From: Takakia lepidozioides
Taxonomy: Eukaryota > Plantae > Bryophyta
DNA: 64,000 nt
Direction of reading: 5' to 3'
Assembly (NCBI GenBank): GCA_030704615.1
Contig: CM060731.1
Location: 48,174,001 to 48,238,000 of the forward strand
A program made the translations under genes and the position numbers. Below the pieces are notes generated by a model that had not been told where the DNA came from, ran no database searches, and was given only the letters and a program-made list of their open reading frames with translations. Below are positions 19,844 through 47,735 of the stretch, one piece after another (the first letter of the stretch is position 1; every line of letters starts with the position of its first letter).

Positions 19844-20958
19844 TTATATTTGAACGGAGTGTTGTGAGGATGACTCAAGACCAGGAGGTAAAAAAGGATA
19901 AGGATGTAAGTGCACCCAAGCAAACTCCTCTGCATAGCCTGTAGTGTTGACACCAACCGCACAAGAGTCCTCACACGAATACACCACAATTGTCCCCCAA
20001 TCCAGAGAATTTGACCCATTGTCAAGTTCCAAAAAGCTAAGCAGTTGGGGCATGATCTGAAGCCCAAACACACGGCACTTGCCACAATGAGGGCATGGAG
20101 GAATGTGAGTTTGGTTGTCCCTTTGATGAAACCCACAAGGGCTTAGCTCCTGGTGAGCTTGAGATCCTCAATACTTGTTCAGGTGCGCTTGCAATTGTCA
20201 TCTCAAAATCTCTTCATCTAAAGACGATTCTTGGACTTCCTCCGTGTCCGTGGCTGTGAATTCCTCACCAGCCTTTTTTCACAGCCTTTTGCACATAATC
20301 TCCTGGAAGCTCTTGCACCCTATCTCTTGTTGATTTCAAACCACACTCTTTGTTGACAACTTCATTTTCTATCCATTCGCACTCGAATAAAAGCTCCATT
20401 TCTGGCCATGATTTCTTCTCTCTTACTGACTTGAAGCCACTTGGGAGGCCTTTGTGCACAACACCACTAGATGAAGAGTTTGTTGGATCCAACAATTGAT
20501 TCCGAACCACTTCAATGCTTCGACAAGGTTTTTCTTCCAACTGCTTGTACTGCTCATGTTGGTCTTGTTGTAAGCATCTCATGTTTTAAGCATCTCATGT
20601 TTGGACATATGATCACAAGTAGAGTGCAATACACATGAGTTGCAGGTTCTTGTTCAAGCATATCATCAGATACTTGCGTAAGGAACTGAAGCGCACCATG
20701 ACAAATCTCACAAACAAAACTTGAAGATGACCATGTGGAATTATTCACATTGTTCAATGGAACCAACCAATTGGGATGCCCACCAACCTTGCTCATAAGA
20801 AGGTGCCCCTCCGCAACTTTCTTTTCTGTATCTTCAATGGAATCTAAGAAACCTAGCAATACATGATTGTCATCAGTCGTCTCCTTGTCACGTTCTAAAT
20901 CTGATTCAACATGATCATGGAGGCTCAAATGGTTCAACTGCTCCAAGGTGCTATTCAT
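19844..20958 (-). pseudogene. PDCD2/PDCD2L-like (PDCD2_C domain) intronless pseudogene
   Basis: SKVGGHPNWL, CEICHGALQFLTQV, PPCPHCGKCRVFGLQIMPQLL, LDWGTIVVYSCEDSC...YAEEFAWV. Frameshifts include a 16-bp tandem duplication at ~20571-20602. Confidence 0.8.
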
Positions 20959-22520: not shown

Positions 22521-25500
22521 TCAAAGCCTCCACAATGCAATCATCCGATTGGACAGTAGAAAAGTCGGACAAATCAGCAAGGGGATACCTGGCTTCTTCT
22601 CCAAAGAAAACCAAATGTGTTCTTGTTTCTTGTGAGCTCTTGAGAACTTGGGTCCTTTTGGATTCACCTCGAACTCGGATATGCGTGTTAATGCTCCCGC
22701 ACTCTCAATCAAATCACACCCGTCATATGTCCTCTCATTCCGTAACATACCTCCCACTTTGCTGAAGAATATTTCACACACATCTGAATCAACAAGGCTC
22801 AAAGGAACTTGCACATGATTAAACTTATCCTTGAACAATTTGATAAGTAGAACCACGTAGTGGCATGCAATTTGTAAATCCAAGTATGCTTCCCTGCTAA
22901 TGAAGAAAGATTTCAGATTATACACCTCGTGGTGGAATAACCACAACTTCCACAATCTGAAAAAAAACGATACCTTCGCAGCAGATTGTACCCTCTCACA
23001 CAATGATATGTGAGGAGACAAAAAAATGTTGATGTAGCATGAAATGATGTATAGGTAAATTTCAGTACCTTTGGTCCTCTCCCTTCGATGATTCACAGTT
23101 GATTGTAACTCCCTCAAACAAGCTTACACCTTCCGAGATGTCAGTCGTTGAGTTGCTGCCCAATTCTGTCGATCTTCTCTTTTGATATCACATTCTCGAA
23201 GTCCATGCTTGTCCACTGAAAATGAATGGTAGACCAATAACACATGATTCAATGTAGCAACCTCATCACCCAACACCAAATTCCGTGATGCACTGTCCAA
23301 GGGATTTACCAATTTTTTTCCATTGTGGATGAAGTCCTGATCATGGAGTCCGTATATATCTCCCCCGTTGCACACTCGACCTGTAAACAACCATCATTCC
23401 CAAGGGATGCAAAATCTACTTCCAGCCCCATTGGCATAATCTTCTAACATCACTTTTCTCCTCCTACTATCTCTGTCTGAAGCATGCCCAATTATAGACC
23501 CAACCACATCCCTCACATATTTGTCCCACAACTGTCTCACCACTTCCCATTGTGATCTCACAAAATTGTTGTCAAATCTATTGCAAGTGAGCTGGATTAC
23601 CAATACCAATCGAGGTAATCGTACATGTAGAGGATTTGCTATCAACACTTTGGCGTAATGGGCAACCACATTGTTTTTGAATTCCTCCACAATATGTCCG
23701 TACCCTGATTCCCCTTCTCCCACTTGCACCACAAAACTTGAAATACATACATGGTTGTCTTGAAGCCCACAGAACCCGAGAAGGGTGTCATCCCTAGCAA
23801 TCCAACGTACCAATCGCTTCACAACAGTTTCATCTTCGGCCACTATCACTGGGATGCTTCCCATTGGAATATTTGCATCTTCCATCACATCTCTATAAAT
23901 TCCAGCCACATGCTGAAATATATCATCCCTTTCTCCCGCTCTATACTTCAAACCTTTCCTCAAAGACCGTCTTATAGTATCAATAGAAGGACCCCCCACA
24001 TTTGAAGCCAAAAAATGATGCAATCTCGGACCCCCCCAAAGCTGCACAGTCTCAAACATTGTTTTTGTGTTAGTACCATACCTCTTCCCTTGTGGAGACC
24101 TGTCAATATTCTTGCCCATATCAACAAGAAAATCCCACAAACTTTCTTTTCCTTCAAAATCCCCCCTCCTATGTGCATCAACAATATCACGACAAAATTT
24201 GAGAACATCTCCTCTTTCAATTGCCTCAATCCCAGACTCCTTCAAACTCCTACATCGCACAGACAAGGATATCACTTTGGTCCTGGCCTCCCACAATTTG
24301 AACCTCAACTGCCTCAACTCCTGTCTGTTTTTGTAAACTTGTTTGACAATCTCGGCATTTCCAAGATATGACAACCTTCTTCCCTTGCCAATATCTCTCT
24401 CCCCTCTATATTCCATGGCACCTCTCTCTCTATATACCCTCATTCTGAAGTCATTTTCCAAGGGAATGGAAGAACATGCTGAACACCTCAAGTTTGGAAA
24501 TGGCTCCCCATCCAATGACACTCTAAAACAATCCGCGTGCCGAAACGTACCAACAACCTTATGCTCTTGATTGTTTAGAGTGATGGTTGCATGTGTCAAC
24601 GGCTCGACATACCACTTCTTTCCTCCCTTGCTATCTTGAAGGAATGGTTTCAGACTTATTCTCTTATGGTTGTACTCCCACCATTCATCCCATAGGCCCC
24701 AACACAAACTGTCTCTTCCTTTGTTGCATTGGGACCTTCGCTATAATTGTCAATCCTCAATCAGATCTGCCCATTGGGCAGCGTCAACACAAGTGTATGG
24801 AGTTTGTGACGAGGATGCTCCCATTGTTGATGCCACAATTGGATTGTCAAGTGGTGGGGACGGCAACACAGGTTGACTGACCAAGAAAGAGCTTAGATCC
24901 CGTTGCTTCACATCTTTGGCAATCATAGGCTTTGGAGGCCTTCCTCTCTTTTTGCACAGTCCTTCACTACTTCCAACCTTCTGGCAAATCTTTGTATCGA
25001 CATGAGTTTTTCCTTTCACATGCTCTGTCAAAGAATATTGCAAAGAACCTGTCCTTGGAAACAAGAGTAGCCACTTCGAATCAAGTGCGCACTTAATCCT
25101 TATGGAACCCAACTGCAAATAGTCTCCAATTGTGGCTTCCACAATCTCAAATCTGTTTCCAGGATTGTCCTCACAAAACCGAGCGACTTCCTCTAATGCC
25201 TCCTTCACCCTGTTCTTATTTGCATCTAATGCTTCATCTGCATTTACAGGGCTGATGACACATTGTGATGAACCCTTCCCATGACGCCTCTCATAGGCTA
25301 TGCGATGTCCCTCACTCCTCAAATGAGATCTCATAAAGTTTGCACATGCATCATATGGTTTGTTTTTCCCAGACCGTGCATAAACATCCTCACACTCAAC
25401 ACACCATATGTGGAATATTGCTTGTCCTTGTTGATCCTTTGTCATGAGCTCAAACTTGTCACATCGTCCTTCTGCAGAGATTTTCCTTTCAACGGCTCTA

Positions 25501-26012
25501 ATATCTTTCTGCCATTTTTGAATATCGCTGGATGTAGCCAACGTGCTGCACAATCTACCATATCTCTGCTGAAGTGCATGCTCATGTTCATTTCCACCAT
25601 CGCCAGCAAAGGGTGTATCAGGGTCCATCCTCATCTTTTTAGACACTGGTGTCGGGTCCTCGCCTGGTCTGTCCTCATGCAAGATCGTAGAACCACTGGA
25701 AGATAGAGGTCTTTTCAATCCTTGGTCCCCATCATTTTGGTCTGAAATCTTAATGTGTACAGTATCTCCTTTCAGAACCATCATCTCTTCCTGCTTGGCT
25801 GAAAGGACACTACCCCCCATGGAAAGGAAATGAATTTTTCCTGAGACAAGCTCATCACCTAGAATTTCTGCTCGGATGCATTTGTATGTGACACCTTGCA
25901 TAGTGAACACAGAACCAAGCCTGTTTGGTGATGCATCTCCTCCAACGAGCAGGACTTTTACTTCCAACTCTTCTTCCATGATGAGTTCACCTGCAAAATG
26001 CAATGAAAACAT
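22521..26012 (-). mobile_element. P-element/THAP9-like DDE transposase relic with N-terminal zinc-finger-like and AT-hook motifs
   Basis: Four track ORFs share one frame and are separated by single stops (24750, 23394, 23124). Motifs: AEDETVV, GHASD, DQDFIHNGKK (DxxH), EDRQNW, SDVCEIFFSKVGG. N-terminal WCVEC...HLRSEGH and KKRGRPPK. Terminal inverted repeats not found. Confidence 0.7.
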
Positions 26013-26658
26013 TTCAAATCAGGCCTTGATAGACCAATAACAAAGCACCCGGGTTGGAAGGTTCCAAAGTCCTATTTTATACAGCCCTATAGGCTGTCCA
26101 AGCAAGGACTACGTTGATAAGAGGATGAAATGTGTACAGAAGCAAGTACCTGATTGATGAGTTTGACGCTGCTAATTCTTGCTGCTACTATTGACCATGT
26201 GCTGCTACTTCCACTGCTGGTAGCCTTCTTGGGTGATCCTGAACCCACAGTCCATCCTTGCATCAGCGGCTAGCCCTCCCTCCACACTAACATATTTAAA
26301 TACAAAGTTATGTCAAACTCCCTACGATGTTGCATGAAGAAAGCTCATCTTGTTGACAATATTGTCCCACCGCTGTGGATCATATTTATAGAACTCCTGC
26401 CATCGCTGTTCCTTGCTCCAAATCTGGCCCTCTTGGATGATTTTGCACCCACGATCCTCTCCCTGCATCAACAGCTACCCCTCCCTCCACACTAACAATG
26501 CGTACATCATGCCTCTGCAGCTGCTACAGTGGCTTCCAGTTGACCATCTACCCATGCAGGTTTCTTGTAGCTATCCTTCCACATGGAATCATAGGTAATC
26601 TGGAGCTTGGAATCCGGCCATCTGGAAATTTAGGGATGACATGATAACAGGGAAAAAT

Positions 26659-27538: not shown

Positions 27539-28376
27539 TTAGGGGGGGGGCATTGGGCGGGAGATAGATGATCCCCGTCTCCCTGGGCTTGGGATTCGTT
27601 TTGTGAAGGGATTTGAAGGTTCGTCCCGGCTAGAAGCGTGTTGGGAGTCGAGGCATGTAGGAAGTAGTCATAAACAAAGACTTGGAAGGCAATTACGATT
27701 AAAGACGTAGAAAACCCATAAACAAAACGTAGGACTAGGATACGCAAATCGCCATGTGAAGTGGAGTTGTTAAGCTTTGCTTTACCGGTAGGAAGTTAGA
27801 CTATTTAGATCCGTGTAGAATAATAGAAAATTCTTTGTGGAGTAGCATTTAGAATTGGAGTGCAAATGAACAAGAATTGGATGTGAAATTGCACTATGGG
27901 GTTTGATAATTTGATAGAATTGGGTAGGATGCTAGAACGGAAGTAAATTCAGATAATGAGGATGATAATTGGTAGGAATGGGGTTATTAGGATAGATGTT
28001 AGCCCATTGAATCAGTGCTAGGTAGTTATGGTAGTTAAAGTAGGACAATATGAGTTCCGCTGAATCGATGTATTCATGGTCATTCGAGCGAGAGTGCCGA
28101 GGCCCTAGCACAAAAGATGCTAGTTTGTCGTTTTCAGTAGCTTAAGTAAGAGATAAGATGAATATGAGTAGTGTGATGAGACAAAGATCTGATGAAAGAC
28201 TCTGTAAGCTTCATGTTAATGTGATGAGATGTTGGAGTTTAATGGGAAGAATTTTGTGTGAAAGAAAAAGATGAGGATTATTTGATGAAGTGTGCAGATC
28301 AATACGAGAGGAATTTAATTGAGATGAATATTAAGACATTTATTGTTGAGAGACAATTAGATTTAGATATAGAGTT

Positions 28377-28461
28377 TGTCGTGCGCATACGTATCGCTAC
28401 ACAACTACATCGCTGTCCAAACCACACCACACATATATGCACAATAAAGTAGTCTGCCACA
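28377..28461 (-). repeat. Terminal repeat Y, copy 2 (85 bp, 3' terminus of element)
   Basis: Minus strand TGTGGCAG...GCACGACA; 2 mismatches to 28813-28897. Confidence 0.95.
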
Positions 28462-28462
28462 A

Positions 28463-28810
28463 TGATAAGAAAGAACTAAACTCCAATAACAAGAGAAACA
28501 CAAACCAACACCATCACTCTTTAAAATAGAAGTCGAGCCAGGGGCACCCCAAGCTATGGGGACTCCACCCCACAACAACCTATCCTCCCATCATAAACAC
28601 ACTCAGTTCTAAACGCATGCAGGAGCTCGGTCGCGCAGGCTCAACTCGAGAGAGATGAGCTGCGCGACTGACGCTCTCGTGAAGATAAGACGGTTCAGGT
28701 GTCAAACTAAACTTGACACCTGATTTAACACTTCACCTAAATCCAAGTGTTAAATACAAATAACTAGCTTTATTCTAGTTAGTTTCACACTGTGCTTATT
28801 TAACTTGACA
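28463..28810 (-). repeat. Terminal repeat X, internal copy (348 bp)
   Basis: Minus strand TGTCAAGTT...CTTATCA; about 4 mismatches to 44205-44552. Confidence 0.95.
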
Positions 28811-28812
28811 GC

Positions 28813-28897
28813 TGTCGTGCGCATACGTATCGCTACACAACTACATCGTTGTCCAAACCACACCACACATATATGCACAATAAAATAGTCTGCCACA
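28813..28897 (-). repeat. Terminal repeat Y, copy 1 (85 bp), directly after the PPT
   Basis: Joined to X through the palindrome gacagctgtc (28807-28816). Confidence 0.95.
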
Positions 28898-28908
28898 ATC
28901 GCCCCCCT
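28898..28908 (-). promoter_or_regulatory. Polypurine tract (plus-strand primer)
   Basis: Minus strand AGGGGGGCGAT immediately before the TG of repeat Y, downstream of the integrase ORF. Confidence 0.8.
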
Positions 28909-29156
28909 AGCTCGTGGATAGGTCCCTCTAACTCCAGATAGCTACAAGATGTAATAGCCACAGCCGTACTAAGTCCTCTATCACTGTCCCTATTGTACTC
29001 AAACTCTATTGACCAAGAGGCCGGGTACAAGAGTAGCCCCATCGTTAGTCGCCGTCTTGCAATCTGTGAACTTGAGCCAGGACCTCGTGTATTCAAGGTC
29101 TCCTGTAGCTTGGCCTTGCATTTCTTGTTAGCCTTCCATGGTTATATCCACTCCCA

Positions 29157-32100
29157 CTATCCAATGCAATGTGGACATAACCAATCCCCATCCGGAACCA
29201 TCTCAAGAGGTGGAGTCAAGCATCACATATGCCAACCTCTAGAGCATCGATCACACACCAGCATGGTGGCTACCCCTTTAGCAGACCCACACAACATGCA
29301 CCTCAAACTTGCAGATATCACTGCCAGGTTTGGGTCAATCCTGCCATCAACATTCGGAAGGTGACATGGCGCACAATTACGCACATGGTCCTTCCAAGTT
29401 ATGTCATCCCGACCCTCCAAGACCAAGACGCCTGAGGGCAAGACCTCTCGAACCCTGAAAATAACACGTCCTGCAGTCACATCCAAGGTTGTAGGAGCAG
29501 TCTGCTGCAGATAGACATAGTCACCAGGGTTGAATCTCCGAACCCCAGGACGATAGCCCCCACCACGTATGGTAGCATACCTCAACGTATCACGGTGTTG
29601 TGCAATGACAAGGTTCTCGAAAGCCATGTGCATGACTTTCTTGAACAACTCTGCACGCTGCTCACATGCACGTGCCCACACGTCCGGATCGTCAAGGTTA
29701 AGAACTGTAGCAGCTTCTCTGCGAATGGATGTAGGCAAATCCGGCTCTCGGCCAAAGAGAAGAAAGTATGGTGAGAAGGAGGCAAGTGATGCTTGCTTGC
29801 TGAACCTGTAGCCCATGGCTAACCAGGGTAACTGAAGGTCCCAATCTCCTAGGTGTCCCTTCTGCAAGCCATACTTGCGCAAACCTGTTTGAACAACTCT
29901 CTCTGCCAAGCCATCGGCCTCAGGATGATCCCGAGAAGCGGTGCGGTGGTCTATCAAGGCCTTGTCACACAAAGCCTGAAACTCCCCCAAGAACTCTCTC
30001 CCTTGGTCTGTGAGTACCTTAGCTGGAGCACCGAATCGGCTAAGCACACAATCCAAGAATGCATACGCAGCTCCCTCACTAGCCTTATCAGGCAATGGAA
30101 CCAATTCAATCCACTTGGAGAAGTGCTCCACCATCACCAACACGTACTTGTTGTGGCGCATGGTCAGTGGCAACGGCCCTGCGAAGTCAAGACTCCACCT
30201 GTAGCCCAATCCCATGATCGGAAGAGGGTGCAATTGTGGAGTAGGGGCGTTGAATGAAGCACGCACCCTGTCACACACCATGCACCTAGCCACAAATTGT
30301 TGCACCTCTGTGTGCATACCACGCCACCAATACTGCCCCTGCAGTAGGCTATGAGTGCGTCGCACCCCAAAATGCCCCAACTCCTCGTGGGCATGCCGCA
30401 CTAACCGTGCCCGCTGTGTTGGGTGAGGCACAATCCTCACTCGACCATCCTCCCACACTCGGAGCAGGTGTGTCCCCTCCCACTTGAACCTCTTGGCTCG
30501 TTGTAGGATCCGATCCCTCTCCTTGGCAGTCACAGTGGCTGCAGTGTCTCCAGTGCGGAGGTAGTCCAACACAACTGAATCCTCATGTATATCTTTGGCG
30601 CCACCTTGCTCATTGCTGGCCTCAGGGTCCTCAGACACTTGATCTACAGTCATCCCTGTTGCAGGTCCAACCTGGCCTTCCGCTGCCAAGATACACAGAA
30701 ATGCAGATGCATGCCATCCGGGCACCATCTCCTCGTCCGTCTCACCATGCCACCGAGCTCCAGTGTCATCCTGCTGGCTCGTGCATGGATTGCGACTCAA
30801 CCCATCTGCATTGCGATTGACCAAACCCGGTCGATGCACCACCTGAAAGTCATACTCTTGAAGGATGAGTGCCCACCGTGCAAGCTTCCCCGTAAGCTTG
30901 TCTGACTCCATCAACCACTTGAGTGGTTGGTGATCCGTGACAAGGGTGAAGAGATTGCCGTATAGATAGCACCTGAAGTGTGCCACGGCCCACACTGCAG
31001 CTAAGCATTCTCCCTCATATGAGCTATACTTAGACTCTGCAGCGTTGTTCGAGCGGCTAGCATAAGCCACTACGAACTCTCTTCCCTCATCATCCACCTG
31101 TGTGAGCACCGCTCCAAGCCCCAGCATGCTCCAATCTGTATGCAGCTGAAAAGGACGCCCCCTGATAGGTCGTCTCAAGATGGGCGCCGAGGTCAACCTC
31201 GCCTTGAGCTCTTGAAAAGCTTGTTCTTGCTCATCTTCCCACTGCCACTCCTGGTCCACCTTGGTCAGCTTGGTTAGAGCCTTTGCAATGGCACTAAATC
31301 CCTTAACAAACCGTCTATAATAGTTTGCTAACCCCATGAAAGCTCGAACTCGGCTCACATCCGTGGGGCGTGGAACCTGTGCAATGGACTCTACCTTAGT
31401 CTGCTGTACCCCCAATCCTCCAGGATATATCATGTGACCCAGATACTCAATCTGGTTGTGGAAAAACTTGCACTTTCCCGGATGTAACTTCAATCCGTGC
31501 GCCCTCAAGCGCTCAAATACCCCCTGAAGGTGTCTCTCATGCTCCTCCACCGTAGCACTAAAGATGATGATGTCATCTATGTAGCACCGAGCAAACTCCA
31601 CCCCTGCTAGAATCCTGTCCATGACTCTTTGAAACTCAGCGGGAGCGTTTTTAAGCCCAAATGGTAAGAACCGCCACTGGTATAGGCAATCCTTCCCGTG
31701 CTCATTGATCCCCCAGAATGCCGTCTTTTGCTTATCCGCCTCCTTGATCGGCAACTGGTGATATCCGGATCGTAAATCCAACGTGCTAAAGACCTTGGAA
31801 TGCCCAATGGCATCAAAGATCTCCTCTGGTGTCGGCATGGCATACCTATCGGACTTGGTCTGACGATTTACAGGCCGGTAATCACCGCACATACGTCTCT
31901 CCGTCCAATTGCCATAGACATCCTTCTTGGCTGGCATCACTGTGGCTGAAGCATACTCTCCACCAGAGAGCTCCACCAAACCTGCCTCCCAGAGATCTTG
32001 AGTCCTCATCTGAATCAAAGACCTCTCCATGTCACTGTATCTATAGGGTCTCCGAAAGATTGGCGTGTCAGTGGCCAACTCAATACGGATCTCTTGACCC

Positions 32101-32282
32101 TTCAGTGCTCCCAAGTCCTTCAAACTAAAGACAAAGCAATTCCTGTAAGCCCTCAGGAACCGCCGTATACGTGGTCTCTCTCCTCCGGTGACAATGGGTC
32201 CAATGTCAGGCTCCCAATTGTCCTCTATAACTGCAACCTTAAGTCCAGTGGGCTTAGAGGTAGAGGACGCGTCCCGTGGTTG
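29157..32282 (-). CDS. Gypsy Pol: reverse transcriptase, RNase H, DDE integrase, C-terminal PHD finger (one premature TGA inside the PHD)
   Basis: RT (LDLRSGYHQ, LPFGLKNAP, YIDD), RNase H (HTDWS, TDHQPL, ADGLSR), integrase HHCC plus SLDF/TDQG/AERVV. Reading through TGA at 29223 gives CMLC...CDRCSRGWHM*CLTPPLEMVPDGDWLCPHCIG*. 32124-32282 is open and in frame with the DNMT ORF. Confidence 0.95.
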
Positions 32283-34493
32283 CTATGCCGCAACCTCTTG
32301 AGCAGTACTCCCTGCCTGCTCATTCAATGACAAGGCCTCATCCTGCCCCATCATCTCATCATTGAGGACCTCATCAACCCGAGAAGAATCCCCAACCTCA
32401 TCCATCACAGCTGCATTGGCTGCCAACTCCCTCTGAACCTCGAGCACCTCCCACGTGTGCCATGGATGTCTACACCCCGTGGTCCTCACCAGCTCGCCCC
32501 CACTCGCTGCCTGTACCGTCTCGGTAGGCAGAGAGACCGTCAAGGGAAGTGCACTCCGCACTCTACGTTGCTCAGCCATAGCCAAGCTGATAATCCAGGT
32601 CAAGCAATTGAGATCCATTGCTTGCCCCAACACCTGACGACGTGATGCCTCAGAAAGAGAAGGCACTGCCGTGGTCCCAGTGGAAAACCCCATAGCCCGC
32701 TCTCGCTCGTCGGCATTAGGCTCCACTAACTGCTGCAACTGAGCATCCCATAGGAGGCCAGGTCCACCATCCCGAAAAGCATGGGATCCTGGGAAGCTGA
32801 GCAGTGTAGGTAATGCTGCTCGTGGTTGACCCACCCTGTTGACCACTGCCAAAGGCGAACGGTCATCGTGTCTCACACGTTGAGACTGTCTCCCTGTGTC
32901 CAAAATGCCATCCACGGTGAGGTGTGCTGACCGCTGCACCCCATCAAATGCACGCTTGAGTAGTGCGGGTGGCATCAAGTTAGTCCACCAAAGCCGTGGA
33001 CGATGAGCCCGTGACCCCACTGCGGCTACATCCAGCAACACTGCTGACCCAAGCCACGACCGGACTTGATGCACACTGGCCATCACCCTGGCCCGAGAAT
33101 CACCCATCAGTGGCACATTCTCCAAGATGTATGCTGGAGATACAGCTTGATGAAGTTGCAAGTAGCGCAAAATCCGCACCATCTCCCAAAACAGACCCGT
33201 CCTCGAGTCTCGCAATCCATTGCCATGCCCAGCTGATGAATGCCCTTGGCAGGGCCAACCTGCCACTACCAGATCAATGGAGCCAACCTGCTCCAAATCT
33301 TGCGCCCCCAGCAAGGAAATGTCTGCTGGCAAGGCTTGTTGGTATCCACGAACTGCAGACACTGGCAACAAAGCAGGGTACTGCTGTACCAACTGAGCAA
33401 CATGGCGCAGTGAGACGCGTCGTGCAGTCTCATCCCTCTCCACATACAGGTAACGCCTTACCCGCACACCTGCCTGTAGCACAGCAGCCAATCCGGTGCT
33501 GATCCCGCCAAACAAGTCCAGAAGGCAAATGCCTTCATCCGGATACTGCCACACAATAGGTGTGGTATCCAATGGTGACAACTGAGGTGGTCCTGGTGCA
33601 ATATCCGCACTCTCCTCCTCTCCTGACGGTACAAAAGCCTCTACCCAGGCTTGTTGCACCCGTCGATCAGCAACCTGCTGCAAATCCTTGCTCGTACCCC
33701 ACAATGGAGTGTGAGCAACCATGGCAGGCAACTCCGCCATACCATGCATGTCATCCTGCTCTGCTGGAGGTGACACATCTTCTGCATGGGCATTGCCTTC
33801 CAGCAACTCTCCAGGCCAACTAACTGCAGCTGTAAAGGCGGCTAGTGTTGGCATCTTGCCCCGTTGGGCAGCCGCAATACCCCCAATGAATGTCACAGGG
33901 AGCTGTGCACGACGACCATCCCCTGACTGCCATCCAGGCCTGTAGAATGCTGACTCCTCCCAAAAGTCCAGGGTGAAGCCCATGGGGTATAACACTGCCC
34001 CACCAACCAGGACATCGTAAGAGACCGCGTCTGTCACAATGGCCTTGGCTCGCATCACTGAGCCATCTGTAGGGTGATCCGGCTGCAGTCTAATGGCCAA
34101 CTGATGTCGTGTCATGCCCCGAGCCTGCTCTGATCCTCCCAGAGATGTCTGTATCTGGAAAGGACAAGGCTCCATATCCGCCTCCATGAGGCCCAAACCT
34201 GCAATAGCAGCTCTGCCCAACATCAGTGGCTGAGCTCCCGAGTCCAACAAGACCCGCTGTGGCCGGTACTTCTTGCCTGCCGGTCCACTCAAAGAGAAAA
34301 TGCCATCCTCTAACAAGACAACTCCAGGTGTCACCATGGCGCGCTCAAAGGCTGGCCTAGCTGGCAGCTCCGTAAACCTGCTGCAGCTTGCCAGGGCGCA
34401 GCCGTGGCAGTCTTGACCCTCAAATCCGAGGATCCCTCTGCCACTACACCTTCCACTAACTCCGCAGAAGATGAAGTGACCTCCCACTCTCAC
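32283..34493 (-). CDS. Aspartic protease followed by DNMT3-like C5 cytosine DNA methyltransferase domain (~32590-33533), N-terminal part of Pol
   Basis: Protease LLDSGA (34236-34244) and DVLVG. MTase motifs I LDLFGGI, II YVERD, IV AGWPCQG, VI LENVP, VIII HRPRLWWTN, IX ERERAMGF, X QVLGQAM, in canonical order. Confidence 0.95.
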   Translation of the reverse strand: MRVGGHFIFCGVSGRCSGRGILGFEGQDCHGCALASCSRFTELPARPAFERAMVTPGVVLLEDGIFSLSGPAGKKYRPQRVLLDSGAQPLMLGRAAIAGLGLMEADMEPCPFQIQTSLGGSEQARGMTRHQLAIRLQPDHPTDGSVMRAKAIVTDAVSYDVLVGGAVLYPMGFTLDFWEESAFYRPGWQSGDGRRAQLPVTFIGGIAAAQRGKMPTLAAFTAAVSWPGELLEGNAHAEDVSPPAEQDDMHGMAELPAMVAHTPLWGTSKDLQQVADRRVQQAWVEAFVPSGEEESADIAPGPPQLSPLDTTPIVWQYPDEGICLLDLFGGISTGLAAVLQAGVRVRRYLYVERDETARRVSLRHVAQLVQQYPALLPVSAVRGYQQALPADISLLGAQDLEQVGSIDLVVAGWPCQGHSSAGHGNGLRDSRTGLFWEMVRILRYLQLHQAVSPAYILENVPLMGDSRARVMASVHQVRSWLGSAVLLDVAAVGSRAHRPRLWWTNLMPPALLKRAFDGVQRSAHLTVDGILDTGRQSQRVRHDDRSPLAVVNRVGQPRAALPTLLSFPGSHAFRDGGPGLLWDAQLQQLVEPNADERERAMGFSTGTTAVPSLSEASRRQVLGQAMDLNCLTWIISLAMAEQRRVRSALPLTVSLPTETVQAASGGELVRTTGCRHPWHTWEVLEVQRELAANAAVMDEVGDSSRVDEVLNDEMMGQDEALSLNEQAGSTAQEVAA

Positions 34494-36474
34494 AGAGTGT
34501 TGCTGCTAGTCTGAACACTGCAGCTGGTCTTACCCCCGGCGTCGCAATCATGGTTGCCGAGAACAGTGGGGCTTGACACACAGAGGTGGCTGCCCCCAAT
34601 AACACACCGGCTGCACTAGCCTTGGTAGCAGGTGTCAGTGCTGCACGTGTAGCTCTCCCCAATGGCATAGAAACCTCCGCCTCGGTAACAGTCGGGCGAG
34701 AACTAGGTGCCATGGATGGCGTTGACACTGTCTCCGCCAAGGTGAATGACTGAGGCAGCCTCGCTTGACGGCTTGCCTCCCCACGTTGTGGATCCAACTC
34801 CACCTCTGCACCTCGTGGCTCAGGAACTTGTGCTGCTCCTCGAGTCACGGCTGCAGCAGACTCCACCTGCTCTAGTGGTAGTGCTGCTCCGCACATGAAT
34901 CCCATGCCTCCCATATCTCCTCCCTCAGGAGCAGGAGGTGGACCATCCCGCCTGGGAGCCGGTACCGCCTGAGCTATAGCCATGGCAGCGAGCCTCTGCT
35001 CTAGCTGCTGAAGCCGATTGGCCATGCCTTGGTCAACACCCTGACCTCCGCGTCCTTGGCCATGTGGAGCTTGCCCTTGGCCTGCACCTCGTGCCCGACC
35101 ACCTCGTCCTCTCTGGGCTGGTCCACCTCGCCCCCGGCCACCATTATTCCCTTGGAACTGGCCTGGGCGCAACTCAGGATGCAAGTCATAACACTGGGCA
35201 TCTCCATGCCCATACTTGCCACAATGCCCACACTGCAATTGTGCAGGCTGTGCTTGTGCCGGCCTTTTGCCACTCTCTGGGCAATCTCTCTTGACATGGG
35301 GTCCTCCACATGTCCAACATATCACCCCTGGTTGCTGTTGGCTTGCAAAAGATGCCACGGGCCTCTGCACCTGAGGTCCCCTGTAAGCTCCATGGAACTT
35401 GGGCTGGGCAACCTTGCCCCCCTGACCACGCTATTGGGCAGCCCCTTGTGCCTGTGGGCTGACGGCTGTGCCCCGTGCAGGCATGTCCTTGCCAAATCCA
35501 ATTGTAACAACTCGCTCCTCCACCATGTTGAGCTCAATCCGCTCAGCCAGCAGAAACACATCTGCTAATGTGGGTTGGGCTGCTTGTAACAGGGTTGCAT
35601 CTCGCACCCTTCTCTTGAGCTCCTTGTCCAGAATTCCATACCAAAACTGGATTGCCTGAGCTTCAGTAACCCCTTGGGTCACACTTATCAAGCGCCTCAT
35701 ACGAGTGTACGCCTCTCGCAGGCTCTCACTGGGTTTGCGCTGGAAGTCTTGCAAACTTCGCAGCTTCTCTGTCCGTACACCTTGGTAGTTCCTCCGCAAC
35801 TCCTGGAAGAACTCCACCACCAGGTTGAATCTAGGCACATGTGTTGTAGTCGTGGCAGGAGGAGTAGTAGCACCTTTTGAACTGGTACCACCTGCAGAAG
35901 TACCAGCACTACTTGCTCCACTACTAGTGCTGGCAATGGGAGCTACTGGTACTGATGCAGCTACTGGTCGCGTCGTGCCTCGAGTAATGAAGACGTAGTC
36001 AGGTGACCAATACATCCTCCACTCCTCAATCTCTGCTTCATGTCCTCGCCTGAACTCGTGGTAATCGTCCATAGGCGGGCCTTCCAAATGCTGAAACAGT
36101 CCCTTCCACGCCATGAATGGGGTGAATAGCTGTGGATTGCGCATCTGCTGCAAATCACACCAGCTGTCAAACTCCTGGATAAAGTCATCCAACTCGATTG
36201 TGCCCACAGCTCCAGAGTACCTACGAGGCCCCTTGGTAGCTCCATACATCTCCTCGATGTCGTCCCACAACAATGGCGAATGAAACTGCACACCTGTTGA
36301 TGAAGCCTCCGAGTTTGTGTCTGACTCTACAGTAATTGAGGGTGGCGGTGAAGGTGGTCTGAACCGAATACCTCGTCTTGTGAACCCACTCTCACTGTTA
36401 CTGCCTGTAGCCGTACTCCCCTCAAAACCCTTGGGTAACTCCGTAATGACACTCACAATGTGCACCTCCTCCAC
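34456..36474 (-). CDS. Gag with two zinc knuckles (one CAG>TAG stop at 35431-35433)
   Basis: Capsid-like FQRKPSESLREAYTRM...QFWYGIL; CWTCGGPHVKRDC and CGHCGKYGHGDAQC; RGG-rich tail. The two track ORFs are in frame, and the second gag copy has CAG at the stop position. Confidence 0.9.
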
Positions 36475-36993
36475 GTGACACTATAAGGCTCTAGTACTAA
36501 TCTAATAGTGACACGGGTGGGCACCTGTTGCAGTTTAAGGGTCATATCCCAATGGCTCAGGGCACCTGCACCTGCATCCACCGCAAGAACTCCTATGGTT
36601 GGCTGGTCATCAACCCAGCCTCACCATAGAAGAAACACTGGTGGTCTTGCTGGTCATCACTCCAGCCTCACCACCGACAGCATACTCTAGGATTGACCGG
36701 TGATCAAATCCGGCCTAATCCCTATGAAAGCAAGCGCCCACACAAAACCAACATGGTGCACAGTCAAGCATGCAGGTGTTGGGGGGGATCCAAACACAAG
36801 AAATCAAAACATCAACACCCCCACACCAAAATCCAGCTGCAATGCTGATCCTGCAGAATAGCCCAGCCCAAAACCCCGGACTGACTGGCCTCCACCAAGA
36901 GAGGCTTTGGCAACTACAAGTACAAAGTAATGAAAATAGTAAAGAGATGGAGGGGAAGAATAGAAGCCCGACCAAGCAAGATCTAATCCTGAT

Positions 36994-37743
36994 CTATGCT
37001 ATCAACTGCCAGACTTCTCTCAAAGTGCCTCGCTCTGCATGATGGTAAGGTATAGGAGGTATATCTATGTCCAGAAACCTGCCACTAACCTTGTCCCAAG
37101 CTACAGTAGCTCGCTCTAACCAACCCTCCTCCTCTTTCTGCCAGGTAGAGACAAAGCAATACTCCCCTATCTCCCGCTCACTGAATACTAAAGAAAACAA
37201 AGGTAGGGTCTGATAGTCTCTCAACTCAAAAGCTTTGAGACGGTTGCGGGTGTCCTCATTGCGAATGACTGCATCTCCTTCACGCACAACAAACATGTCA
37301 TTGCTGATGAACCCCCGCTCGTGGTTGCCCTGTACAGAGCGTATACGGCTGCAACCATGTCTGATTGCACAAACTTGTGTAGCTCCTGCTCCTCTGCTCC
37401 AGTACACCACGGCCTTGTGGCTGAACACCTTGGTCCCCGGGGCTGTCTTTGGCTGTGTTCCAAGCCTAGCTTTCACCCACTTTGGTATTTCACCTACAGC
37501 TGCAGAACTGCTGGCTCCAACAGAGTTCTGACTGTCCAAGGCGATATTGAGGCCCTCAACGCCAACTACAACAGTTTGTTGTCCAATACTAATGCCTGAC
37601 TCCCAGTATGCAATCAACTCGTCCAACTGTTCTCCACTCAAATCAGTCTGAGTTCCTTGGGAAACATAAATCTTGTCCCCTTTGGTGCACAGGCTAAGAG
37701 AAGAGACTTGCCCTTCAATCACGTCATCATTTCCCCCAGCCAT
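36994..37743 (-). CDS. Extra 249-aa ORF upstream of gag, unknown function
   Basis: ATG-initiated, uninterrupted, same strand as gag, globular-looking composition. It lies in a ~1.05-kb block absent from the second leader copy. Confidence 0.55.
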   Translation of the reverse strand: MAGGNDDVIEGQVSSLSLCTKGDKIYVSQGTQTDLSGEQLDELIAYWESGISIGQQTVVVGVEGLNIALDSQNSVGASSSAAVGEIPKWVKARLGTQPKTAPGTKVFSHKAVVYWSRGAGATQVCAIRHGCSRIRSVQGNHERGFISNDMFVVREGDAVIRNEDTRNRLKAFELRDYQTLPLFSLVFSEREIGEYCFVSTWQKEEEGWLERATVAWDKVSGRFLDIDIPPIPYHHAERGTLREVWQLIA

Positions 37744-40045
37744 ACAAGGAGTACATCCCCAGATTTATCTCTCATGTAGACTAGAACAGGTTCTAGAAAC
37801 AGGATTGTGTATCTTTCATGGCACACTCACACTCTAAAAATTCCATAGATTTTTAGCAGAGTCCCAAAAACAAAAACCAGGTCTAGATAGGTAGATTTCC
37901 CCTTTCTGCAGCTATCCCCTCAAAAACTGAGTCAAACGGAGCTCATTTGACGAAGATATGACCAACCAGGCTCTTTAAACATAACACCTTTTTCTTTTCT
38001 TTCCCCTTTTTTTTAAAAAAAAAAGACAAAACAAATACAAAGAAAACTTTAAAAAAAAAAAAAAAAAAAAATACTTGTCTTGGTTTCCTGTTCCCTGGTT
38101 ATCTACGGGTTCCCGAGGCCGTTCCCCCAACTCTATTTTCCATCAGTAAGGCCTGACGGGAAGGAGGGCCAACTCTTTCCACTTACACAGACATGCCAAA
38201 GGAGCAGGCCCTGACCAGCAAAAGGTTCGCCCACATGCATATCCCCCTGTGTAATGTTCTCTACTCATGCTTGCAATCAACCAACTTCAAAGCGTCCAAC
38301 ACCAAGCCTCGTTAAAGGGTCCAAAGCGCCTCGTTTATCTACAATGAAGGTGCACACCCTGAATAGTAACGGGTTAGCTCCCCTCCAGAGACGTAACCGG
38401 CCTGAATAGAAGCAAGAAACCAATCCTCTTTGATCTGCTCTTCACAGAACAGGAGAAATCTGATCGCCGTAATGCGTTGACACCACGACACGAGGCGTCG
38501 TCGAACGTCCTCCCTTTCTACTTTACAGCCACAGCCGCTCCTTCACAGCAACGATGCACTCTCCTTACACAGCGCCGCTACACACTGTCTTTTCCTCTAC
38601 TGGCTTCACAGACATGCGTCTGCTTTACAACACAATATTATTGCAAGATCTGCCACTCACGGTCGCAAAGACTGAAAGTCTTGATACTACAACAGTGACA
38701 TTGCCTGCACACAAGCCATAGCCACTCCTTCACATCGTACATGAGCAAAACCGCCGCACCTTGACACCTTCATGCGAGAAACTCCAAGTGCATAAAAGCT
38801 TGGACAGGTTCATTCATGGGAGAGTGCTTGCAAGGCACGGTGGCCTCAATCTGAAGCCACACTATTGTAGGTTATGCCAGCATCATCCAGACCGTCCCTG
38901 CATCTTGGATATGCATCCTCCAGCAGGGGCCGCTGCCTCCATTGCTCGACACTTGGGTTATATGCTCAGCCAGACCAGCAATGCCCTTGGCTGCTGCTAG
39001 CCCAGGCCTCAATGCTCCTCCAACGCTCTTAACAGTATGACAGGGAGCTCGCATTCCGATTCCAAAAAGACAAGAGGCCACGACTTGCAGGATTTGGCAC
39101 CTCACCTGGCAATAAACTTGCCGCTGGAATTGACGGGCCACTTACTCAACTCCCAAAGGGTACCCCGGTTGATCCAGCATCAGGCCTATCAATTACTGCC
39201 CTCATAAAACCGCAACTCTGCTCACGTCGTGCCAGTGTAACTGGCCTCGCCGTTATGCCCCAGGAAGTCGTAGCGGAACATGACGTGCTCACGTTAGTGA
39301 CCAAGGGCCTGAATCAGCTCCAAGACGACCTCAAACCAAAAAACAAGGCCACGACTCACTAATGGCAGAAATCAACAAGCGACTAGCCGCTCAGGCCATC
39401 TCCATCAAGACAGATATCAAAGAGGATTGAGTGGCCATGGAAAATAGGGTCTCAATCATCATGGCTGCCCGGCAAGAAGGACATCACACTGACCTCCTGT
39501 CGCTCCAGTATTCCATCACCAAGAATCTAGGTGCTAACTTAGCACTCTTCTACGAGCATGCAAATAAGGTACTTGAAACGCTACCCACCCCCCCCATGCA
39601 GGCTCAATCAACCCACAGGGCAAGGCGCGGCCATTATCGCAGAGAATGCACACCCAAAGGTTCACTAGCCGCTGGCTCTACTTGAACTCCCATTCGCTGC
39701 TCTCATTCACCGCAGCGGGCTCTATGGGGGCCCTAACATCACACCACCACCAGCTGCCATCGACATATCCTCCACAGGCGACGGCGCCCCTACAGTGGAA
39801 ACACACCTCACCAATGCCAACAGGAATCTGGACATACCACCATTACTCTCTCTTCTACCTATACCCCCGGAGTCCCACCATTGCGACTGAGGATGTGAGA
39901 CAAACTCCAGCTAGCGCCATTCTATGCTCATTGCTTGAGCTGTGTACAAGACCATGACCATCTATATTATAATAGTGCTTAAAAAAAACAAAAACATCAT
40001 ATCTAGTTTAGCACTGGAAAACTAGATAGAGTGATCTCTCTCGAG

Positions 40046-40402
40046 TGATAAGAAAGCTTGAAAGGACACACACTCTCAACACAAGAAACAGGTTATCCAT
40101 CAACATCACTCTTTGAAAACATAAGTCGAGCCAGGGGCACCCCAAGCTATGGGGACTCCACCCCACAGCAACCTGTACCCCTACATAAGCACACTCAAAT
40201 CTAAACGCATGCAGGAGCTTGGTCGCGCAGGCTCAACTCGAGAGAGATGAGCTGCGCGACTGCCGCTCTCGTGAAGATAAGACGGGTCAGGTGTCAAACT
40301 AAACTTGACACCTGATTTAACACTTGACCTAAATCCAAGTGTTGAATACAAATAACTAGCTTTATTCTAGCTAGTTTCACACTGTGCTTATTTAACTTGA
40401 CA
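40046..40402 (-). repeat. Terminal repeat X of a second, diverged family member inserted into gag of the first
   Basis: Same TGTCAAGTT start and CTTATCA end with a diverged PBS-proximal part. It abuts gag sequence (ccttggtcaacacc) at 40403 with no Y repeat. Confidence 0.9.
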
Positions 40403-42324
40403 CCTTGGTCAACACCCTGACCTCTACGTCCTTGGCCATGTTGAGCTTGCCCTTGGCCTGCACCTCGTGCCCGGCCACCTCGTCCTCTCTGGGCTGGTCC
40501 ACCTTGCCCCCGGCCACCATTGTTCCCTTGGAACTGGCCTGGGCGCAACTCAGGATGCAAGTCATAACACTGGGCATCTCCATGCCCATACTTGCCACAA
40601 TGCCCACACTGCAACTGTGCAGGCTGTGCTTGTGCCGGCCTTTTGCCACTCTCTGGGCAATCTCTCTTGACATGGGGTCCTCCACATGTCCAACATATCA
40701 CCCCTGGTTGCTGTTGGCTTGCAAAAGATGCCACGGGCCTCTGCACCTGAGGTCCCCTGTAAGCTTCATGGAACTTGGGTTGGGAAACCTTGCCCCCCTG
40801 ACCACGCTGTTGGGCAGTCCCTTGTGCCTGTGGGCTGGCAGCTGCATCTCGTGCAGGCATGTCCTTGCCAAATCCAATGGTAACAGTTCGCTCCTCCACC
40901 GTATTGAGCTCAATCCGCTCAGCCAGCAGAAACACATCTGCTAATGTGGGTTGGGCTGCTTGTAACAGGGTTGCATCTCGCACCCTTCTCTTGAGCTCCT
41001 TGTCCAGAATTCCATACCAAAATTGGATTGCCTGAGCTTCAGTAACCCCTTTGGTCACACTTATCAAGCGCCTCATACGAGTGTACGCCTCTCGGAGGCT
41101 CTCACTGGGTTTGCGCTGGAAGTCTTGCAAACTTCGCAGCTTCTCAGTCCGTACACCTTGGTAGTTCCTCCGCAACTCCTGGAAGAACTCCACCACCGGG
41201 TTGAATCTAGACACATGTGTTGTAGTCGTGGCAGGAAGAGTAGTAGCACCTTTTGAACTGGTACCACCTGCAGAAGTACCAGCACTACTTGCTACACTAC
41301 TAGTGCTGGCAGTGGGAGATATTGGTACTGATGCATCTACTGGTCGCGTCGTGCCTCGAGTAATGGAGACGTAGTCAGGTGACCAATACATCTTCCACTC
41401 CTCAATCTCTGCTTCATGTCCTCGCCTGAACTCGTGGTAATCGTCCATAAGCCTGGATAAAGTCATCCAACTCGATTGTGCCCACAGCTCCAGAGTACCT
41501 ACGAGGCCCCTTGGTAGCTCCATACATCTCCTCGATGTCGTCCCACAACAATGGCGAATGAAACTGCACACCTGTTGATGAAGCCTCCTAGTCTGTGTCT
41601 GACTCTGCACTAGTTGAGGGTGGAGGTGAAGGTGTTCTGAAACGAACACCTCGTCTGGTGAACCCACTCTCACTGCTACTGCCTGTAGCCGTACTCCCCT
41701 CAGAACCCCTGGGTAACTCCGTGATGACACTCACAATGTGCACCTCCCCCACGTGACACTATAAGGCTCTAATACTAATTCTAATAGTGACATGGGTGGG
41801 CACCTGTTGCAGTTTAAGGGTCATATCCCAGTGGCTTAGGGCACCTGCACCTGCATCCACCGCAAGAACTCCTATGGTTGGCTGGTCATCAACCCAGTCT
41901 CACCATAGAAGAAACACTGGTGGTCTTGCTGGTCATCACTCCAGCCTCACCACCGACAGCATACTCTAGGATTGACCGGTGATCAAATCTGGCCTAATCC
42001 CTATGAAAGCAAGCGCCCATACAAAACCAACATGGTGCACAGTCAAACATGCAGCACACTCACACTCAAAAAATTCCATAGATTTTTAGCAGAGTCCTAA
42101 AAACTAAAACCTAGATAGGTAGATAGGTAGATTTCTCCTTTCTGTAGGTCCCTGTGCAAGTTTTGGGTCAAACGGCCTTGGTAGGCCAAAGTTATGGCCA
42201 AACAGGCTCTATCTAATTTAGATTAGATCAAAGAACGAATTTCTTTTAATTTTTCACACCCAAAACGTTGTCGCCATCAAAAACTGTTCCCTGGTTATCT
42301 ACGGTTTCCCGAGGCCGTTCCCCT
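40403..42324 (-). pseudogene. Second, truncated gag plus leader (outer family member)
   Basis: Near-identical to 35027-36775 and 37821-38126, with a ~100-bp deletion at ~41450 causing a frameshift. Confidence 0.9.
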
Positions 42325-42500
42325 CGCACTGTGAGCACACTACTGCCCCATTTCCGGTGCAGTTTGAGCATAGAATGCTAGTGGCTTTACTTGGAGGCAT
42401 GGACTATGATGCCTGGACGCACACACGCCCCCGACCTGTTCTACACTGCGGAGGAGCACCATCACTGCATTTCCGAGCGCACTCCACAGCAGCAGTCTTC

Positions 42501-42503
<3 letters not shown>

Positions 42504-42546
<43 letters not shown>
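42504..42546. repeat. (GA)n microsatellite
   Basis: Pure GA dinucleotide run. Confidence 0.95.
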
Positions 42547-42548
<2 letters not shown>

Positions 42549-42838
42549 ATGGCGGGACTTACAACAATAGCACAGGGCATCACAACGTCCTTGGCATGAG
42601 CGGCATGGCGTGGGTGCCCTCAGATGCAGCTCACAGTAAGGGGCGATCTTGCATGGAGCAACCTCCTCTGTTGCACCAACTGTGCGCCGCCGAGAAGTGG
42701 CTCATCTGGTGGGAGCGACCTCAGGATATGCAGCAGCTACTGCTAGCACCTGTGGTGGAGAGCGGGGTTGGCGCGCTCCACTACGTAGTGAATGCCTGGA
42801 AGTCTAGTACACCACAACACTCTCTCTCTCAACCTGCC

Positions 42839-43045
42839 CTTAGAAAGAAAACCATTCAAAGTGATCCCTCCCACTGCATTTGTCTCCGCAGCGTTTTTAT
42901 AAATTGGATCCTCCCATGGGCTGCCACAAAATTGCAACAATCCATGTGTCTCTCTTTCATTGTCAGAACCACCAGAACTGCATGGTTGGAGGCGGCTGTT
43001 GAGAAAAGCTCCTCCAGCTCCTGAGAACGCAGTGCACCATCCCCT
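42839..43045 (-). pseudogene. Captured fragment of a mitochondrial Rho GTPase (MIRO) gene, second EF-hand region
   Basis: DGALRSQELEELFSTAA, then an intron-like spacer ending ttttgtggcag, then PWEDPIYKNAAETNAVGGITLNGFLSK. This resembles the plant MIRO motif L..xE.E.LFSTAP.SPW...Y..AAE....GG.....FLS as I recall it. Confidence 0.7.
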
Positions 43046-44189: not shown

Positions 44190-44204
44190 CTCATCTCTCT
44201 CGAG
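44190..44204 (-). promoter_or_regulatory. Non-tRNA primer-binding-site candidate, complementary to a loop inside repeat X
   Basis: Minus strand CTCGAGAGAGATGAG directly after X; perfect inverted copy at 44387-44401. A 12-nt core is conserved at 40034-40045. Confidence 0.7.
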
Positions 44205-44552
44205 TGATAAGAAAGAACTAAACTCCAATAACAAGAGAAACACAAACCAACACCATCACTCTTTAAAATAGAAGTCGAGCCAGGGGCACCCCAAGCTATG
44301 GGGACTCCACCCCACAACAACCTATCCTCCCATCATAAACACACTCAGTTCTAAACGCATGTAGGAGCTCGGTCGCGCAGACTCAACTCGAGAGAGATGA
44401 GCTGCGCGACTGACGCTCTCGTGAAGATAAGACGGTTCAGGTGTCAAACTAAACTTGACACCTGATTTAACACTTGACCTAAATCCAAGTATTAAATACA
44501 AATAACTAGCTTTATTCTAGTTAGTTTCACACTGTGCTTATTTAACTTGACA
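44205..44552 (-). repeat. Terminal repeat X, 5'-terminal copy (348 bp)
   Basis: Starts TGTCAAG at the element end next to TSD AGTT; no Y repeat precedes it. Confidence 0.95.
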
Positions 44553-47595: not shown

Positions 47596-47735
47596 ATCCG
47601 TCCATAGCTGCCACGGACCCTTGCACTTACCGCAGCCGGGTAGGCGGTTCGTTTAGCCCAACCTACACCGCAACTTGCCACGACCCCCTAGGCTAGTATG
47701 CCGTCACCCTGGCCGCGCGCGACCAGGGCTCATCA

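What the first reader, a model, noticed from the sequence alone, without database searches (positions are those of the whole stretch)
29157..34493. Gypsy retrotransposon with a DNMT3-like DNA methyltransferase inside Pol, in a land plant
Seen: one minus-strand frame runs protease (DSG) - complete C5-MTase (motifs I, II, IV PC, VI ENV, VIII RxR, IX, X) - RT - RNase H - integrase - PHD. Only a TAG at 32283 separates the MTase from RT, and the 53 codons after it are open. Known: short-TRD MTases with RxRxxWxN and ExERxxGF motifs are DNMT3/DRM-like de novo enzymes; DNMT-carrying retrotransposons have been reported from Symbiodinium and the charophyte Klebsormidium (de Mendoza et al. 2018, from memory). 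I do not know of a characterised land-plant example. Inference: the MTase would be packaged with RT and integrase and could methylate new cDNA, for self-silencing, camouflage or competition with other elements.
Basis: partly seen in the sequence, partly recalled or inferred. Interest (0 to 1): 0.93.

Follow-up and report, generated by a model that had tools for sequence, protein, structure and literature searches.

The report
Bryophyte retrotransposons carry a DNA methyltransferase
A jumping gene found in many copies in this seed-free land plant, with close relatives in liverworts and peat moss, carries its own DNA-methylating enzyme just before a conserved stop codon that is likely leaky, so the enzyme is predicted to be made in bulk with the capsid protein and would mark the element's new DNA copies.

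Summary
Real, and richer than reported. One minus-strand frame holds protease, a complete unrearranged DNMT3-type methyltransferase, a TAG, then RT-RNaseH-integrase-PHD. The methyltransferase is a family trait: read depth matches RT, relatives occur in Marchantia, Calypogeia and Sphagnum, catalytic PC/ENV are kept, and dN/dS between lineages is about 0.1-0.2. The TAG is not decay: 38 of 46 sequences keep TAR-CAR there, and four distant lineages have the plant read-through context TAG-CARYYA. The enzyme therefore ends the abundant Gag-protease product rather than lying in Pol (read-through inferred). The element has the A-coding-B-A-B repeats of Klebsormidium KnitGypsy-Dnmt3, 4-bp target duplications, a covarying self-priming site and a palindromic B|A junction; this suggests integration of a circular copy cut at an internal site. 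This copy has three further breaks. Methylation of its cDNA is untested; the Klebsormidium domain gave no activity in yeast. Ten literature searches found no land-plant report. The scan noted a similar stop before on other DNA, there placed upstream of the methyltransferase.

The parts
44205..44552 (-). 5' repeat A (TGTCA...CA, 348 bp); left end of the insertion
   Evidence: 4 mismatches in 348 to the 3' A
44386..44401 (-). 16-nt stretch inside A complementary to the primer-binding position: predicted self-primer
44190..44205 (-). primer-binding site, pairs with A itself
   Evidence: covaries in L001 and L023
42210..44190 (-). low-copy 5' region with scraps of host genes (BSD2-type zinc finger 42302-42403; weak EF-hand-associated piece 42746-43213)
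40403..42054 (-). first, truncated gag copy (96% to the second)
40055..40402 (-). nested second repeat A (89-93% to the other two) with its own primer-binding site at 40046-40034
36994..37764 (-). 256-codon ORF of unknown family upstream of gag, high copy in the host's reads
34456..36480 (-). gag with two zinc-knuckle-like motifs; copy-specific stop at 35433-35431 and a frame break near 34480
33900..34340 (-). aspartic protease (LDSG at 34247-34236)
   Evidence: (weak Pfam match)
32586..33539 (-). C5 cytosine methyltransferase, DNMT3 type, unrearranged, all motifs intact
32277..32285 (-). conserved in-frame stop with read-through context TAG CAA CCA
30800..32282 (-). reverse transcriptase and RNase H
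29330..30430 (-). integrase (zinc-binding domain and DDE core)
29157..29330 (-). C-terminal PHD finger, broken by a TGA at 29225-29223 in this copy
28900..28912 (-). polypurine tract
28813..28899 (-). repeat B, first copy (87 bp)
28807..28816 (.). palindromic B|A junction GACAGCTGTC, predicted integrase cutting site on a circular cDNA
28463..28810 (-). 3' repeat A
28377..28463 (-). repeat B, second copy; right end of the insertion (...CGACA)
28373..28376 (-). 4-bp target-site duplication AACT (other copy 44556-44553); the insertion splits a repeat whose intact copy lies at 47595-46942

Best explanation
This is a high-copy bryophyte Gypsy retrotransposon whose DNMT3-type methyltransferase ends the Gag-protease frame at a conserved stop that is likely read through to make RT-integrase, so the enzyme is predicted to be packed in bulk into the particle, where it would methylate the new cDNA. 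Shown: domain order, intact motifs, family-wide presence, selection, conserved stop and context, A-coding-B-A-B repeats, 4-bp target duplication, covarying self-pairing at the primer site. Inferred: (1) read-through gives Gag-PR-DNMT in excess over the RT-integrase fusion (about 0.85); (2) reverse transcription is self-primed (0.85); (3) the true LTR is B+A, the cDNA circularises and integrase cuts the internal CGACA-NN-TGTCA junction, giving A-coding-B-A-B from two-LTR circles and A-coding-B from one-LTR circles (0.55); (4) the enzyme writes 5mC on cDNA before integration, so new copies arrive pre-marked like host heterochromatin (0.55-0.6).
For: Family trait: in run X1 depth over the MTase bins (0.73-1.15 million) equals that over RT-integrase (1.0-1.24 million) against 0.5-3 thousand in low-copy bins, and one contig of organism B spans 28893-33841 (depth is not a copy number). 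Named relatives: Marchantia, Calypogeia (75%), Sphagnum. MTase and RT trees agree. Catalytic C and ENV kept in 35 of 35; dN/dS 0.12 for L023/L024 and L023/L063. Fold: DNMT3B Z 29.1, DNMT3A 27.8, HhaI 21.9. Stop: 38 of 46 TAR-CAR; 5 of 6 MTase-before-RT lineages under 75% DNA identity, 4 with exact CARYYA; CARYYA is 0.2-0.4% of other in-frame positions; L023 has two ORFs, 1369 and 1047 codons, joined by that one stop; five Marchantia proteins of 1278-1281 aa end at the same place; none of the 46 has CAG, CAA or TGG there. UAG-CARYYA is the plant type I read-through signal (PMC5382211, PMC2754532, passages); Tj1 needs such a stop (PMC4600332, passages). Self-priming and ends.
Against: No enzyme activity was tested; the isolated KnitGypsy-Dnmt3 domain showed no methylation in yeast, called inconclusive by its authors. 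The largest lineage has CAA CCC, not CARYYA (30 of 38), followed by ATG, and 13 of 38 have TAA. Seven deeper-branching relatives (P0015, P0018, P0019, P0046, P0050, P0052, P0229) run from MTase into RT with no stop, and a 38-row clade with its MTase after RNase H makes it part of Pol, so bulk production is not required for keeping the domain. Three named gene models (P0001, P0201, P0231) also run into RT with a shortened junction. dS against the window is near saturation, and within the decayed L001 family dN/dS is 0.63-0.75. The catalytic loop (CQGHSSAG) differs from DNMT3A (CNDLSIVN), so the target context cannot be read off. A-coding-B could also arise by recombination between the two B copies after insertion. 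This copy has three further breaks. The 45 loci are not independent: most belong to one family.
Confidence: 0.6

Rival explanations
1. The MTase works after integration or on other DNA: released from the polyprotein, it methylates genomic copies or competing elements and so limits transposition or remodels the insertion site.
For: Production at Gag level would give much free enzyme; a PHD finger points to chromatin contact; de Mendoza et al. list host-benefit and insertion-site models. Moss host DNMT3 is a de novo and CHH enzyme.
Against: Selection on a trans-acting enzyme would be diluted among copies, yet the domain is kept with RT across lineages; proteins in the Gag frame normally end up in the particle (established knowledge).
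Confidence: 0.2
2. The stop is real but Pol is made another way: splicing to the AG of the TAG, or re-initiation at a nearby ATG.
For: TAG CAA CCC ATG in the L001 family; an early ATG also in L002, L024, L022, L063.
Against: In the window, L023 and L046 the first ATG is 85-117 codons on, in two cases past the RRPYR start of RT; upstream pyrimidine share is only 0.37-0.6; the conserved letters are CAR after the stop, as read-through predicts.
Confidence: 0.12
3. The domain is kept for a non-catalytic or RNA-directed job in the particle (nucleic-acid binding, genome RNA methylation).
For: No activity of the Klebsormidium domain in yeast; position at the end of the Gag-level product.
Against: Catalytic C, ENV and the SAM-binding F are invariant in 35 of 35; the fold is closest to DNA enzymes DNMT3B/A, above DNMT2 (Z 20-22).
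Confidence: 0.12
4. A one-off capture of a host DNMT3 in a dead copy, with the TAG a random deamination.
For: This copy has other stops and CpG depletion; the family does pick up host-gene scraps.
Against: Searches show a widespread, selected domain and a conserved stop.
Confidence: 0.01

Closest known systems
KnitGypsy-Dnmt3 of Klebsormidium nitens (de Mendoza et al. 2018, PMC5890265; parts 1, 3 and 4 of 7 read plus passages, three supplements searched by term, main supplementary PDF and figures not readable)
   Same: Gypsy domain set with an unrearranged Dnmt3-type MTase, purifying selection, DIRS-like repeat arrangement (A-coding-B-A-B as defined there for DIRS).
   Different: Land-plant hosts and high copy number; MTase ends the Gag-PR ORF at a conserved read-through-type stop, whereas the paper places it in the Pol ORF; self-priming, 4-bp duplication and the B|A junction are not in the text I read.
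SymbioDIRS-Dnmt3 of Symbiodinium (same paper)
   Same: Dnmt3 domain in a retrotransposon polyprotein, split direct repeats; shown to methylate CG in yeast.
   Different: DIRS with tyrosine recombinase; this element has a DDE integrase and target duplications.
Tf1/Tj1 of fission yeasts and plant Tcn1 (PMC4600332, PMC6317226; passages)
   Same: Self-priming; Tj1 needs an in-frame stop with Pol lacking its own AUG.
   Different: Tj1's stop is at the end of Gag; normal two-LTR ends; no MTase described in the passages read.
Type I read-through of tobamoviruses, UAG-CARYYA (PMC5382211, PMC2754532; passages)
   Same: Same signal; about 10% read-through in TMV.
   Different: Here in a nuclear retroelement, after an accessory enzyme.
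Green-algal PHD Gypsy elements (Gypsy-7a_cRei, PMC9940879 passages; REM1 seen only as a reference, paper not held)
   Same: Gypsy polyprotein with PHD finger; related elements with the MTase between RNase H and integrase include Chromochloris, Hariotina and Scenedesmus entries.
   Different: MTase position and the stop.

Membership tests
Ty3/Gypsy LTR retrotransposon | Order PR-RT-RH-INT | tested here: met
Ty3/Gypsy LTR retrotransposon | TG...CA ends, target duplication, PBS and PPT | tested here: met
   4-bp duplication exact in the window and 4 of 7 loci with both ends, one mismatch in 2, unresolved in 1
Ty3/Gypsy LTR retrotransposon | Two identical full LTRs at the ends | tested here: not met
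   A-coding-B-A-B or A-coding-B
DNMT3-type C5 MTase | Motifs I-X in unrearranged order with PC and ENV | tested here: met
DNMT3-type C5 MTase | Closest solved sequences and folds are DNMT3A/B | tested here: met
DNMT3-type C5 MTase | Groups with host DNMT3 in a tree | not tested
   no host DNMT3 sequence came back; tree has no such rows
DNMT3-type C5 MTase | De novo DNA methylation activity | not testable with these tools
   needs an assay
DRM | Rearranged motif order | tested here: not met
   DRM2 aligns over only 120 residues, Z 9.5
KnitGypsy-Dnmt3 lineage | Gypsy domains plus Dnmt3 domain under purifying selection | tested here: met
KnitGypsy-Dnmt3 lineage | DIRS-like split repeats | tested here: met
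   against the legend
KnitGypsy-Dnmt3 lineage | MTase inside the Pol ORF | tested here: inconclusive
   same frame but upstream of a conserved stop; the Klebsormidium figure could not be seen
KnitGypsy-Dnmt3 lineage | Clusters with K. nitens sequences | tested here: inconclusive
   no hit named Klebsormidium; most hits are unnamed
DIRS/tyrosine-recombinase elements | Tyrosine recombinase, no DDE integrase | tested here: not met
   rve and H2C2 present, no recombinase hit
Type I stop-codon read-through | UAG followed by CARYYA, downstream ORF in frame | tested here: met
   window and 5 loci exact; 31 of 38 have CAA CCY instead
Type I stop-codon read-through | Read-through product detected | not testable with these tools
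   needs reporter or proteomics

The most novel reading that the evidence does not exclude
An ancient green-plant retrotransposon lineage, alive in liverworts and mosses including the model Marchantia, loads a DNA methyltransferase at capsid stoichiometry by stop-codon read-through, methylates its own cDNA inside the particle, and integrates with a DDE integrase from circular cDNA cut at an internal palindrome rather than from linear ends.
Probability: 0.3. Interest if true: 0.9.

Novelty: new variant of a known kind. Interest (0 to 1): 0.72.

Why it matters
Why retrotransposons carry the enzyme class that silences them has been open since 2018, and the known cases are algae without genetics. 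Marchantia has many copies annotated as hypothetical genes, with methylomes and mutants at hand, so the question becomes testable. The stop tells how much enzyme is made and where. If circles are the integration substrate, this breaks the rule that LTR circles are dead ends for integrase elements (recalled textbook rule). Counts of DNMT genes in bryophytes are also inflated by these copies.

Tried and rejected
No own genome held, so copies were judged from reads and from metagenome loci. Viral contigs: 0 of 32 pattern matches were relatives. No tRNA gene in the window. No RNA holder listed; X7 is only guessed to be RNA, so nothing is said on expression. Variation at the stop among the host's own copies stays open: the difference table is cut (1057 rows not shown). 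The careful MTase tree did not finish; both trees are quick trees without host DNMT3 or MTase-free Gypsy rows, midpoint-rooted, so origin and direction are not claimed. Atlas: generic C5-methylase clusters for the domain, nothing for the 256-codon ORF. 253 representatives at E 1e-30 or better are unnamed and show breadth only. Earlier notes of the scan by sequence and place: none. Literature: searches found no land-plant MTase-Gypsy report and no mention of Mp6g11220; two later papers say 'streptophytes' citing the 2018 work (passages), and their supplementary trees were not seen, so a bryophyte mention there is not excluded. PMC10952607, PMC6673714, PMC6453930, PMC11982613, PMC10508981: passages only, nothing on this family. 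REM1 paper not held; it may describe similar repeats. No complex prediction was sent. Rejected: DRM, DIRS, one-off capture, random stop.
Full report
Observation. The minus-strand frame 34505-29157 reads protease, methyltransferase, TAG (32285-32283), RT, RNase H, integrase, PHD, confirmed by Pfam. All catalytic motifs are present and in unrearranged order. The best solved relatives by sequence are DNMT3A then DNMT3B, ahead of DRM2 and HhaI. A model with mean pLDDT 94 matches DNMT3A/B best by Foldseek and by VIA-align (Z 29.1 and 27.8; M.MpeI 25.5; HhaI 21.9). The host is a seed-free land plant, likely a bryophyte: PLS-PPR and DYW genes, MATE exon closest by identity to a moss. No genome is held.

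The methyltransferase belongs to the family. Contigs of run X1 cover it as deeply as RT and integrase, about a thousandfold above low-copy bins, and one contig of a second organism spans methyltransferase to PHD with 243 differences in about 5 kb. Protein searches gave 52 long and 58 mid-length relatives, among them many Marchantia polymorpha entries (61-73% for the full-length matches), Calypogeia fissa (75%), Sphagnum and Closterium; one Marchantia cluster alone has 18 members. A scan of metagenome contigs gave 71 loci. In the 35 sequences with a near-complete domain the catalytic C, ENV and motif-I F never change; the two motif-VIII arginines are kept in 24 and 27 of 35, with changes of the CpG-decay type (retrieval used a motif-IX or protease pattern). 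dN/dS is 0.12 for L023/L024 (dS 0.26) and L023/L063 (dS 1.33), 0.08-0.22 for the window against 18 of 20 loci (dS near saturation, two not computable), and 0.63-0.75 inside the decayed L001 family. Quick trees of the methyltransferase (101 rows) and of RT-RNase H (42 rows) both put the window with Marchantia and the L001/L010 loci, next to L023/L063; a separate clade has the domain after RNase H.

The stop is conserved. Of 71 loci, 45 showed the domain followed by the start of RT; with the window, 38 of 46 have TAR-CAR at the same place (18 TAG CAA CCC, 12 TAA CAA CCC, 6 TAG CARYYA, 1 TAA CAA CCA, 1 TAG CAA CCT). Four have TAC or GAG, one letter from TAG; four are shifted or decayed. Most rows belong to one family; at under 75% DNA identity there are six lineages with this domain order, five with TAR-CAR and four with exact CARYYA, and the sixth reads TAG TAG CCA. 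CARYYA occurs at 0.2-0.4% of other in-frame positions. L023 has exactly two ORFs, Gag-protease-methyltransferase (1369 codons) and RT-PHD (1047), joined by this stop. Thirteen unnamed proteins, five Marchantia proteins of 1278-1281 aa and the Calypogeia cluster end at about the same point. UAG-CARYYA is the plant type I read-through signal, about 10% efficient in TMV, and the Gypsy element Tj1 needs an in-frame stop. Against: seven deeper relatives have no stop, three gene models run on into RT, and the largest family has CAA CCC ATG, which allows re-initiation; but in the window and L023 the first ATG lies inside RT. I infer read-through, so the enzyme would be made at Gag level.

Ends and replication. 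Self-comparison gives A (44552-44205), coding, B, A, B (to 28377), flanked by AACT, inserted into another element's repeat. The outer A copies differ at 4 of 348 sites, so the insertion is young. This is the arrangement reported for KnitGypsy-Dnmt3. Of 17 loci with B, 4 end B-A-B, 11 end in a single B, 2 are cut by the contig end (L066 re-scored; some loci are the same insertion). Ends are TGTCA and CGACA or one-letter variants; 4-bp duplications are exact in 4 of 7 loci, one mismatch in 2, unresolved in 1. The sequence after the 5' A pairs with a stretch inside A: 16 nt in the window (0 of 969 random stretches reach it), 10 nt in L001 (2 of 1000), 16 nt in L023, with different letters in each: self-priming as in Tf1, Tj1 and Tcn1. 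With the PBS after A and the PPT before B, ordinary reverse transcription would yield B-A at both ends. The integrated forms are circular permutations of that, opened at the B|A junction, which is CGACA-NN-TGTCA in four lineages and a perfect palindrome in the window, L001 and L063. I infer that integrase cuts circles there; recombination between B copies is a rival for the single-B form.

Mechanism. Most likely the Gag-protease-methyltransferase protein builds the particle, a minority read-through product supplies RT and integrase, and many enzyme copies methylate the cDNA before it enters heterochromatin-rich DNA. The last step is untested: the related dinoflagellate enzyme methylates CG in yeast, the Klebsormidium one gave no signal, and the catalytic loop here differs from DNMT3A.

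Known and new. Methyltransferase-carrying Gypsy elements are known from Klebsormidium. Ten searches found no land-plant report; supplements and figures that I could not see may bear on this. An earlier AI note of this scan describes a stop upstream of a methyltransferase-Pol in another genome; it gave the Tj1 lead and is no support. Verdict: new variant of a known kind, interest 0.72.

Noticed in passing
window 42210-44190 and 37975-40034 (-): The two 5' regions behind the primer sites differ from each other, are low copy, and the outer one holds host-gene scraps (BSD2 zinc finger E 2e-8; EF-hand-associated piece E 1e-3): likely transduced host sequence.
   Followed up: partly
window 36994-37764 (-): 256-codon ORF upstream of gag, high copy in the host's reads, no Pfam or atlas family, absent from the 71 loci.
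   Followed up: partly
window 40402: A second element starts inside the first gag; its own 3' end is missing, likely lost by recombination between the two gags.
   Followed up: partly
window 14011-15849 (+) and 15813-16241 (-): PLS-type PPR gene whose DYW deaminase piece lies on the opposite strand right behind it: a local inversion or assembly error.
   Followed up: no
window 44651-44553, 28376-27814, 47595-46942, 47697-48122: Another LTR element (integrase core at 47697-48122) whose one repeat is split by this insertion.
   Followed up: partly
window 23394-26018 (-): Two ORFs of 448 and 422 codons without Pfam match; transposase-like by eye.
   Followed up: no
window 58110-59518: 177-bp tandem units in an ORF; weak RING match on the + strand.
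   Followed up: no
window 723-4511, 19847-20167, 51470-52843, 62241-63981: Host genes: Nop14, PDCD2_C, Myb-domain ORF, MATE transporter.
   Followed up: partly
L048:2-4732 and P0016-P0049 in part: A large sister group carries the same MTase between RNase H and integrase with no stop; named members are green algae.
   Followed up: partly
P0214, P0035: Family members are filed under bacterial MAG names in NCBI: likely eukaryotic contamination of bins.
   Followed up: no
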